Positions 23,401 to 26,400 of a DNA stretch of 64,000 nt are shown here, piece after piece; within the stretch, counting starts at the first letter, position 1, and each line of letters starts with the position of its first letter. A program made the position numbers and the translations under genes. This DNA comes from Callorhinchus milii (lineage: Eukaryota), in assembly GCF_018977255.1 (NCBI RefSeq), contig NW_024704757.1:6944001-7008000 (forward strand), read 5' to 3'. The notes below the pieces were generated by a model that was not told the DNA's origin, searched no databases, and saw only the letters and a program-made list of their open reading frames with translations.

Positions 23401-26400
23401 ATGCAAGGATGATTATTATTAAAATACAGTCAATTCACTTTACAGTATATCCCGTGAAGCGCTTTGAGACGTCTCAATGATGTGATAAGGCGCTATATCA
23501 AATGCAAGGATTATTATTATTTCAACTGGATTTACAGGGCCACGAGGACGTGTTCCTCAACACAGCCAGACGAGAGAGAAACGCAGACCACTAACCGGAC
23601 AGAATTTTATCGTACAGTGCAGTGCCGTTGTCTAAGCTGTGGCCTGAGTATCTGTGTGATGACTGGCCACTGCTGTCCTGAGAGAGGGAGGTGCTACTCA
23701 GGGATCTATCCTGAGAGCTGTCAGGGGTCAGGTCTGGCCTCAGCTGCTCGCCCGAGTGCCTTGCGGGGGAGGCTGGGGGCTGCTGCTGGAAGCGCTGGAA
23801 CCTCTCCTCCAGCTGCTGCTCCAGCTGCTGTTGCTGCAGCTTCTGCTGCTGTTGAATCCTCTGAAAACAGAGAGGGATAAAGCTGTGACTCAGTGCAGGG
23901 TTAAACACCTTAAAGTGCAAGGTAAATGGCCATGAATTCAAAACTTTCAAAATATAACTCCTGTCTCTAACCCTTGGTTTCCTCTCAATACGCTGTGTTA
24001 CTTACATTGCCCAGCTGAGTGTCAGAATCGTGGGGGTTTGGTTTCTAAGCCAGGTGGGAATGGGGATTCTTCCCGCTCAGCTTCTGCTAACCCTGCAAGC
24101 CAAAGCCCCAACAGGTAGGGTGGTCCTAGCTGGACGAGCATTGGGAAGCTTGCCAGTCAGCAATATCAACGGCAAGTTATGCAGTTTTAGCTGGTTAGAC
24201 TCCAGCAGTTACCCCAACACACACTCTGGAGGGAGGGGGATGGGCAAGCCCTGGCTCTTGCCAACCTACACCAAATACCCTGCAGAAGTAAGCGGTGTGC
24301 GTCCCTCCCAGGAGAGAGGGGGTATTCTATTCCAGACACAGAGCAATCTCCAATGTGTAGGTGGCAATACACATGTGGAATTCTCAGTCTGGTTTGGAGA
24401 CTCTTAAGCACAGTGATTGGGTTCCACATGTGTAAGACACCCACCCGGCTGAAAACAAAAGTGATTTTATTTGGTGTACACTCAGTCAGTTTTTATGCAG
24501 GTTATAATTTTACTTTCACCTTAAATAAGTATCACCGAATTGGATGATGCTGTCGCTTATAACCCTGATCAGCTACTCTCAAACCTCATTTATTTTGGAC
24601 CGGAGACCAGACTGACATCACAACATTTGGGCATGGAGAAATTAGTTACCTTTGGGTAGATGATCAGAAAAAGCAGCCAGCCCCCGACTATCACAGTGAT
24701 GATGGTCATGGTCAGGATGTCCTGGTTACCTGATTCAGGCACCACCTCAGTTGTAGGCTCTGGCTTCACATCCCTCTCCATTCGAGGCCTCTGGTTAGTC
24801 ATGCTTGACGGGATCTTGTCAGGGTGGGTCATAAACTTAGGGAAAAGGCACAAAAGGTTATTACTTTTCTAGAAAAGGCACAATACTGCAGATGCTGGAA
24901 ATCTGAAATAAAAACAGAAGTCGCTGGGAACACGGAGCAGGTCATGCGGCATCTACAGAGAGAGGAAAGTGAGATAGCAGGTCTGATGAAAGGTCGACCT
25001 GAAACGTTAACTCATTTTCCTCTCTGCATAGATGCTGCTGACCTGCTGAATATTCCCAGCGACTTCCGTTTTTATTGTTAGTTTCATTCTACAAAGGGTA
25101 AAAACGGTTGAGATTTTGTGGGTGGAAACATAACAGCTGAATCTTTTGCAACGTACATCATCGAGTGTGTGGCTGTTGGTCTTTGTGGTGATGACAGTCT
25201 CTGTGTTCTTCTTCAGCGGGTGAGGAAATGCCCTCAGGATTGTGGTGTGTGCCACTGGAGGCAGCTGGTGGTGACCTTCAAATAAAAAAAAAACACATTG
25301 CTGACTGATTTTAAAATAGGAAGGCTTGACACTGTTAGTTGAATTGTAGAAAGCGATTAAAGTGCAACATCTAACAACCCGTCTGTCTGATGTTACTGTG
25401 TAATCTCGTCTCGGCTCTTCCCACACTTTTGTCTAATGATGTGAAAAAAATGTGGTCACTCAATCCGCAACTGTTTGTGGACGCTGCTGTGCACAATTGG
25501 CTGCCGCGTTTCACCCACAAAATACAGTCAATCCACTTTATAGTTTGTTCCGTGAAGCGCTTTGAGACGTTTCGACAATGTGACTAAGTGCTATATCAAA
25601 AGCAAGGATTATTATTATTATTATCACTGTGCTTTGAAATTTATTTTATTATTTGAGATTATTCCTGACGCACTGAGAGGCTGAGTCCAAGCAGACCTAC
25701 ATACAGTACAAACTAGCGTGTACAACATGTTCACAGCATTTACCAGTGTGTGTAGCAATACATAGTATATATATCAATATATACCAATGGGTGCCCCAGT
25801 ATATCAATGCCCTCTCTATACACTGGCAGAGGAGATCAATGCCCTCTCTATACACTGGCAGAGGAGATGACAAAAATCAAAGACAAACCTATCAGCAGCC
25901 ACTGGCTCTTCACGTTCCCGGAGGAGAAGGTGCTTCCCTGGGGATATTTGACGTTGGTGCTGGGGATGATCTCACACTCCCCGCTCTCTGCCAAGGTCAC
26001 ATCCTCGGTTGTGGGGCCATCAATACGCACGATAGTGATCCCACGAGGCTGTGAAAAAACATGGAGTTTAGATTTGCCAAAATAAACCAAAAAAGTCTTT
26101 CACGACATTCTGTGAAGAAAAGTAAAGGGATAATGAAGTGAACGTCGGGATTGGTATACAACATAAATACGAATAAACAATAATATGGACATTAATGTAC
26201 TGATTTCCACTTGTTGGCTGGTCCAAAAAAGGGGCAGAAATAAACACGAAACGTGCTATATACCAATTGCAAGGATTATTTTATATTCAATTGGATGATT
26301 TCGAAGCTGATCTGGGAGGTCGGGTGACATGCTGTATCTATTGCACGCTTGTACGTCAGTGTAAATGCAGATTATTTCCCGATAATTCAGCAGCAATGTG

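What the first reader, a model, noticed from the sequence alone, without database searches (positions are those of the whole stretch)
24979..25013. Minimal hammerhead-ribozyme core in the loop of a hairpin element in ERN2 intron 11
Seen: the + strand reads AGGT-CTGATGA-A-AGGTCGACCT-GAAA-CGTT-AACTC. This gives both conserved hammerhead cores in the right order, a helix II (AGGU/ACCU), a palindromic AACGUU where helix III and the NUH triplet (GUU) belong, and a helix I with one G-A mismatch (AGGU/AACU). Known: Penelope-like retroelements carry minimal type I hammerheads with very short palindromic helix III, thought to act as dimers. Inference: this is a slightly decayed Penelope-type ribozyme, and the ~200-bp hairpin family may be a non-autonomous, ribozyme-bearing retroelement (retrozyme-like). 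The motif is antisense to ERN2, so it would not cut ERN2 pre-mRNA.
Basis: partly seen in the sequence, partly recalled or inferred. Interest (0 to 1): 0.7.

Follow-up and report, generated by a model that had tools for sequence, protein, structure and literature searches.

The report
Decayed Penelope-element hammerhead in intron hairpin
This is a damaged copy of the small self-cutting RNA motif already known from Penelope-type jumping genes, left in an intron as one half of a head-to-head pair of the element's end pieces; most such pieces begin at the motif's first letters, which likely marks where the element's RNA starts rather than where it cuts itself.

Summary
The motif is real (1 match in the window, 0.02 expected). 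It is the minimal type I hammerhead at the 3' end of the pseudo-LTR of an RT + GIY-YIG Penelope-like element with a Neptune/Nematis-type Cys linker: 31 of 40 loci picked by RT sequence carry it downstream on the same strand. This copy is predicted dead: loop II is deleted, helix I is mismatched, and both helices have about zero predicted probability. The hairpin is not a retrozyme. It is two 5'-truncated pLTR ends joined head to head, exactly one carrying the ~35-nt PLE tail (37 of 39 pairs). In 99 unbiased arms, 49 begin at the start of helix I and 2 at the predicted cut; genome-wide in subfamily C, 187 against 6. A TATA-like motif lies 30 nt upstream, so these stubs are likely cDNAs that ran off the RNA's capped 5' end. 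The element is spliced out of the IRE1 (likely ERN2) mRNA. The scan has noted this family and the run-off idea before, in this and other genomes.

The parts
24979..25012 (+). Decayed minimal type I hammerhead: helix I 24979-82/25009-12 with a G-A mismatch; CUGAUGA 24983-89; extra A 24990; helix II remnant 24991-25000 lacking the 3-nt loop; GAAA 25001-04; ACGU palindrome 25004-07; predicted cut after 25008
24978..25076 (+). pLTR 3' end, untailed arm: from 34 nt before to 69 nt after the predicted cut, 92 of 99 aligned letters equal to the subfamily A majority
24872..24973 (-). Second pLTR 3' end in inverted orientation, starting about 2 nt after the predicted cut (no hammerhead core) and carrying the ~35-nt PLE tail (about 24906-24872)
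24974..24978 (.). Junction letters between the two arms; AGCAGGTC here also resembles the antisense arm, so the helix I mismatch may be junction filler rather than a point change (inference)
24836..25156 (-). 321-nt GT-AG intron 11 of the IRE1 gene (likely ERN2) that holds the insertion
26699..26880 (.). Second inverted pair of the same family; both arms start at the GTTAAC palindrome around the predicted cut (-3 and -1), one arm tailed, no hammerhead core
22714..22880 (.). Third inverted pair; one arm tailed, no hammerhead core, 12-bp target-site duplication with one mismatch

Best explanation
The motif is a copy, predicted inactive, of the minimal hammerhead at the 3' end of the pseudo-LTR of a Penelope-like retrotransposon, and the hairpin is two short pLTR ends inserted head to head, likely made when the element's RT-endonuclease copied the first ~100-135 nt of an uncleaved transcript onto both nicked target strands. 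Shown here: linkage to RT + Cys linker + GIY-YIG-like ORF; two fixed 3' ends ~35 nt apart; exactly one tail per inverted pair; target-site duplications on short solo copies; 5' ends piled at the first letters of helix I in two subfamilies; a TATA-like motif 30 nt upstream; no pile-up at the cut in subfamily C. From the literature: internal RT initiation at two sites and extension of both strands by the Anolis PLE protein in vitro (PMC11167929). Inferred: the pile-up is the transcription start, so the hammerhead would be the capped first ~33 nt of the RNA and the stubs are run-off cDNAs; the family ribozyme would cut only as a dimer or with protein, and rarely before reverse transcription. This copy likely does nothing for the host: it is antisense, misfolded and spliced out.
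For: 31 of 40 RT-selected loci have the window's motif-plus-arm downstream on the same strand, 3 of 40 on the opposite strand; 13 of the 31 keep both cores. L106 has a 470-aa stop-free frame running from RT motifs through CxxxxCxxC to a GIY-YIG-like end. RVT_1 E = 6.9e-5 on L103 and GIY-YIG E = 0.13 on L106. Shark and ray homologues are up to 62% identical, and several homologues carry PF00078 + PF01541. 3' ends are bimodal, about +63..+83 and +92..+117; 37 of 39 adjacent inverted pairs have exactly one tail. TSD score >=8 in 10 of 33 short solo copies against 1 of 191 shuffled flank pairs. 5' ends: 49 of 99 at -36..-29 (0.146 per nt at risk) against 0.003-0.009 elsewhere; 17 of 29 in subfamily A and 32 of 70 in C. 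Genome-wide in C: 187 arms start at -32 against 6, 9, 14 and 12 at the cut, +2, -2 and +4, and 3 of the 6 are small internal deletions. Contigs of run X10 show loose ends at the same four positions, mode at -32. TTAAA at -62 in 17 of 25 long copies. Helix pairs: 88.9% paired, G-C/A-U switch at 10.1-11.1 (28 vs 7).
Against: No RNA 5' ends were seen: only contigs were available, and they cannot show starts. The modal first base is a G after an A, not the usual pyrimidine-purine start (recalled rule), and ends spread over -36..-29 with a second mode at -34. The extra-G signal is weak: 38 of 100 listed matches (p = 0.054), 38 of 81 after dropping 19 AAC rows (p = 0.001), counted by eye; it was not seen in the scripted set (11 G of 49). 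D. virilis Penelope has a TATA-less promoter whose start lies well upstream of its hammerhead (PMC2377424, PMC4209133). Three of the six arms in this window start within 3 nt of the cut, and subfamily A has 5 of 45 arms at -3..+4, not counting this hairpin's own minus arm, so a small cleavage footprint in A is not excluded. The window copy has no clear TSD (best score 6). No full-length or intact element was found, and the Pfam scores are below the curated cut-offs. Covariation reflects essentially one event between two subfamilies.
Confidence: 0.85

Rival explanations
1. The short units are a SINE-like non-autonomous family: a few short source copies starting at helix I were transcribed and spread using the PLE enzyme.
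For: Short copies carry their own TSDs and far outnumber long ones (depth step in run X10; 9 of 99 arms reach -100). Trans-mobilisation by pLTRs is reported in Adineta (PMC3846280, passages).
Against: The same start recurs in two subfamilies that each have long copies. The TATA-like motif lies outside the short unit. Short copies match their subfamily's long copies in the hammerhead region. No tree was built.
Confidence: 0.15
2. Non-LTR retrozyme: a tandem or circular RNA unit released by hammerhead cleavage and re-integrated.
For: Non-autonomous, ORF-less, hammerhead-bearing and pLTR-derived, as proposed for animal retrozymes (10.64898/2026.07.22.740005). Same-strand partial tandems exist in a few long loci (L064, L081). 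Three window arms start near the cut.
Against: 1 of 99 arms has a same-strand neighbour, and only a 33-nt piece. Ends are not at the cut. The motif is minimal, not the canonical type I of retrozymes (PMC7229834). Pairs are head to head, which puts the two hammerheads on opposite strands.
Confidence: 0.04
3. The pile-up marks a 3' splice site (pyrimidine tract + CAG before TTCTGA), as in D. virilis where the intron ends at helix I, and the stubs are copies of spliced RNA.
For: The pLTR upstream is strongly pyrimidine-rich and ends in CAG. PMC4209133 reports the D. virilis intron end at the 5' end of helix I.
Against: No shared upstream exon in 26 junction copies lacking an inverted partner; matches to the pLTR were no longer than for shuffled controls. 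The mode includes the G of CAG.
Confidence: 0.06
4. This copy has been co-opted to affect host splicing or RNA stability through its hairpin or cryptic acceptors.
For: It fills about 205 of 321 intron bases; its tail ends 36 nt from the acceptor and adds cryptic AG sites on the gene's strand.
Against: Spliced contigs from three runs use the normal junction. The copy is as diverged (92-93% identity) as other copies. Catalytic positions decay about as fast as flanks within subfamilies: 7/100 vs 17/280 and 8/306 vs 43/952.
Confidence: 0.04

Closest known systems
Minimal hammerheads (min-HHR) in pLTRs of metazoan PLEs, Cervera and De la Pena 2014, PMC4209133 (parts 1-2 of 4 read; 2 supplement files searched, file 1 not searchable)
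   Same: Type I, no helix III loop, palindromic 15.2-16.2, extra nucleotide between 9 and 10.1, 4-bp helix I, located in the pLTR, mostly dispersed single copies of truncated PLEs.
   Different: Helix II is 5 bp (7-8 bp in their Schistosoma families). Subfamily A has A10.1-U11.1 rather than the conserved G-C. No shark or chimaera appears in the text read or the supplements searched.
Poseidon element of Anolis (PAc), Frangieh et al. 2024, PMC11167929 (parts 1-2 of 4 read)
   Same: Two 3' ends separated by a 30-40-nt tail just downstream of the hammerhead; both target strands extended; uncleaved RNA is the main template.
   Different: Different clade: this family has the Cys linker. PAc's ORF starts at stem II, whereas the ORF start here was not located. 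The parts read report no pile-up of 5' ends at helix I.
Neptune/Nematis EN+ PLEs and inverted-pLTR insertions (PMC8557442 and PMC3846280, passages read)
   Same: RT, CX2-5CxxC linker, C-terminal GIY-YIG; adjacent inverted 5'-truncated copy; tail at one end only; TSD of about 8-13 bp.
   Different: Here most insertions are only the last 100-135 nt; no tree was built to separate Neptune from Nematis.
Animal non-LTR retrozymes (PMC7229834, passages; bioRxiv 10.64898/2026.07.22.740005, parts 1 and 3 of 5 plus passages)
   Same: ORF-less, hammerhead-bearing, related to pLTRs.
   Different: Retrozymes are head-to-tail repeats with a hammerhead in each unit; these are solo or head-to-head stubs.

Membership tests
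PLE minimal hammerhead | CUGANGA and GAAA cores in order, NUH after them | tested here: met
   Window copy; 2207 genome matches against 184 for the reversed control
PLE minimal hammerhead | Helices I and II pair and covary | tested here: met
   Family: 88.9% paired, one compensatory and one wobble change between subfamilies (42 of 51 eligible arms plus the window copy, 9 with indels left out). Not met in the window copy.
PLE minimal hammerhead | No helix III loop, palindromic ACGU for dimer pairing | tested here: met
   GAAACGTT in both subfamilies
PLE minimal hammerhead | Located in the pLTR of an RT + GIY-YIG element | tested here: met
   31 of 40 RT-selected loci
PLE minimal hammerhead | Self-cleavage as a dimer or with protein | not testable with these tools
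   Bench assay needed; no genomic footprint in subfamily C, inconclusive in A
EN+ Penelope-like element | Single ORF with RT and C-terminal GIY-YIG | tested here: met
   L106 stop-free frame, weak Pfam hits, homologues with both domains; N-terminus and start not found
EN+ Penelope-like element | 30-40-nt optional tail, inverted 5'-truncated partner, TSD | tested here: met
EN+ Penelope-like element | Full tandem pLTR-ORF-pLTR copy | tested here: inconclusive
   Only truncated, inverted or partial tandem copies among 43 RT-bearing loci
Neptune clade | CX2-5CxxC linker between RT and EN | tested here: met
   CX4CX2C in L081 and L103; shared with Nematis per PMC8557442
Neptune clade | RT phylogeny groups with Neptune | not tested
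   No named reference sequences in hand
Non-LTR retrozyme | Head-to-tail repeats with a hammerhead in each unit | tested here: not met
   1 of 99 arms with a same-strand piece within 400 nt
Non-LTR retrozyme | Circular RNA expression | not testable with these tools
   Only contigs available

The most novel reading that the evidence does not exclude
In this PLE family the hammerhead is the capped first ~33 nt of the element's RNA, and the thousands of 100-135-nt stubs and fold-back pairs are run-off cDNAs primed at the two internal initiation sites on the two nicked strands. The genome would then record the transcription start, both RT starts and the fact that the template was not self-cleaved, giving a base-level test of PLE integration and of what the PLE hammerhead is for.
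Probability: 0.55. Interest if true: 0.55.

Novelty: new member of a known kind. Interest (0 to 1): 0.3.

Why it matters
The single copy is ordinary genomic debris. The family extends PLE minimal hammerheads to a chimaera genome; they were not found reported for sharks or chimaeras in the searches made (Lunse et al. 2017 could not be opened). The role of PLE hammerheads and the origin of the inverted pLTR and one-sided tail are open questions (PMC8557442). The end statistics here favour integration from uncleaved RNA, copied on both strands, and name exact bases to test.

Tried and rejected
Rfam scan: no hammerhead hit at E<=5. Pfam on six short broken frames: nothing useful. PDB search with the 470-aa frame: 0 hits. 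No RNA holder is listed as such for the locus, so nothing is concluded on expression. Contigs laid on a long pLTR gave no usable splice or start signal. One search used a wrong anchor and was discarded; one search replaced it. TSD search on the window copy: no clear duplication; a gapped ~17/22 match seen by eye was not counted. Splice-exon test negative. Cleavage-footprint test negative in subfamily C; in A 5 of 45 arms, confounded by the GTTAAC palindrome centred on the cut (the filter dropped many partner arms). Two-copy cofolding did not return the hammerhead dimer as the lowest-energy fold, which says little for minimal hammerheads. Paper searches for a 5'-end/run-off report found none. 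Limits: the 99 arms are the first 100 of 3083 exact matches, all from the first 21.6 Mb of contig C1, one duplicate removed; exact patterns under-count old copies, and patterns differ in length and degeneracy.

Full report
Observation. The + strand at 24979-25013 reads as described. The two-core pattern occurs once in the window against 0.02 expected. It lies in the loop region of a hairpin of -104.8 kcal/mol, z = -15.6. The host gene is on the minus strand and is labelled IRE1 of Callorhinchus milii in the protein databases. Spliced contigs from three RNA-like runs join 25157-25273 to 24650-24835, so the element sits in a 321-nt intron and is removed; exon counting makes this intron 11. PLK1 and UBFD1-like exons nearby fit ERN2 by recalled human synteny.

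The family. A search with the motif and right arm gave 2744 candidates in the 991-Mb genome. A 21-nt arm pattern has 3083 exact matches, and the hammerhead pattern has 2207 against 184 for the control. Two subfamilies appear. A, the window's, has helix II AGGUC/GACCU and helix I AGUU/AACU. C has GGGUC/GACCC and AGUU/GACU. This is one evolutionary event, not deep covariation. Within subfamilies, core positions decay about as fast as the flank, with CpG sites worst, as expected for dead insertions.

Link to Penelope elements. Walking upstream gave a pyrimidine-rich pLTR and then broken coding sequence. I then picked 40 loci by RT sequence alone. Of these, 31 have the window's motif and arm downstream on the same strand and 3 on the opposite strand. 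L106 has a 470-aa stop-free frame from RT motifs through a Cys linker to a GIY-YIG-like end. Pfam support is weak but of the right kind, and homologues in sharks, rays and invertebrates carry RT and GIY-YIG domains. The CX4CX2C linker marks Neptune or Nematis (PMC8557442, passages); no tree was built. No intact element was found.

What the hairpin is. In 99 arms chosen by a pattern 32-52 nt past the predicted cut, 3' ends fall in two groups about 35 nt apart. This is the PLE tail, which in Anolis corresponds to two internal RT start sites (PMC11167929). Of 39 adjacent inverted pairs, 37 have exactly one tail, against 22 of 44 tailed among solo arms. Short solo copies have target-site duplications (10 of 33 against 1 of 191 controls). 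The window hairpin fits: an untailed + arm from -34 to +69, and a tailed minus arm from about +2 to +102. Two more such pairs without a core lie at 22714-22880 and 26699-26880. Only 1 of 99 arms has a same-strand neighbour, so the defining feature of retrozymes (PMC7229834; bioRxiv 2026.07.22.740005) is not met.

Where copies begin. 49 of 99 arms begin at -36..-29, the 5' strand of helix I, and 2 of 99 at -3..+4. Genome-wide in subfamily C, 187 arms begin at -32 against 6 at the cut and 9, 14 and 12 at neighbouring offsets. Contigs of an independent run break at the same bases. A TTAAA motif begins 30 nt upstream in 17 of 25 long copies. I had noted an initiator-like site before consulting earlier findings; the TATA and extra-G leads came from them. 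The extra G is only weakly supported: 38 of 100 by eye, p = 0.054, and 11 of 49 in the scripted set. No shared upstream exon was found, which argues against a splice-site origin. Against a clean story, three of the six arms in this window begin within 3 nt of the cut, and subfamily A has 5 of 45 other-sample arms there, where a palindrome confounds the call. No RNA 5' ends could be examined.

This copy. It lacks the 3-nt loop II and has G in place of U at 2.2, possibly junction filler. The drawn hammerhead costs +2.1 kcal/mol against an alternative fold at -8.0. Helix I probability is 0.000 alone, in the hairpin and in the intron. It is antisense to the gene, so the pre-mRNA does not contain it.

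Mechanism and verdict. Shown: family identity, tail rule, TSDs, end distribution, predicted misfolding. From print: minimal hammerheads in pLTRs with low, dimer- or protein-dependent activity (PMC4209133; PMC11167929). Inferred: transcription starts at helix I, and stubs are run-off cDNAs from uncleaved RNA made on both target strands. D. virilis differs, with a TATA-less start upstream of an intron (PMC2377424, passages). The finding is a correct catch of a known kind in a new lineage. Searches found no report for chimaeras or of the start pile-up; subscription papers, Repbase/Dfam entries, Lunse 2017 and bioRxiv supplements were not seen. Also consulted as passages: PMC3846280, PMC6155905, PMC6765202. 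The scan's own notes report the same family and idea many times; they are not independent support.

Noticed in passing
window 24836-24907 (minus strand): The element's tail ends in a sequence nearly repeating the host's polypyrimidine tract and AG 33 nt downstream, and the arm adds further strong-looking acceptors; spliced contigs use only the normal one.
   Followed up: partly
window 26699-26880: Both arms of this inverted pair start at the palindrome centred on the predicted cut; could be a cleavage trace or a microhomology join.
   Followed up: partly
window 37490-37561, 27960-28017, 34316-34370, 43133-43194, 61289-61345 (minus): tRNA-like heads inside a very abundant SINE-like repeat family ending in ATT repeats.
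   Followed up: no
window 22714-22880: Rfam miRNA models (mir-70, MIR2118) hit this PLE hairpin far below their gathering scores; such fold-backs could be mistaken for, or give rise to, small RNAs.
   Followed up: no
window 5449-5811 (+) and 51082-51420 (-): PLK1 first exon and a UBFD1-like exon flank the IRE1 gene.
   Followed up: partly
L106 (G000:C13:8113200-8120500, minus): Long PLE copy with a 470-aa stop-free frame, an inverted untailed pLTR at its 5' side, a tailed 3' pLTR with a duplicated piece in the hammerhead, and a 13-bp TSD.
   Followed up: partly
one search hit list: Several shark and ray RefSeq proteins named after ordinary genes appear to be gene models that include this PLE ORF.
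   Followed up: no
window 53974-55506, 42060-42485, 5813-6361, 63373-63977: Minisatellite arrays (27-nt, 18-nt and 17-30-nt units).
   Followed up: no
L002/L003, L080/L086, L128/L129: Near-identical locus pairs tens of kb apart or on different contigs: segmental duplications or assembly duplicates.
   Followed up: no
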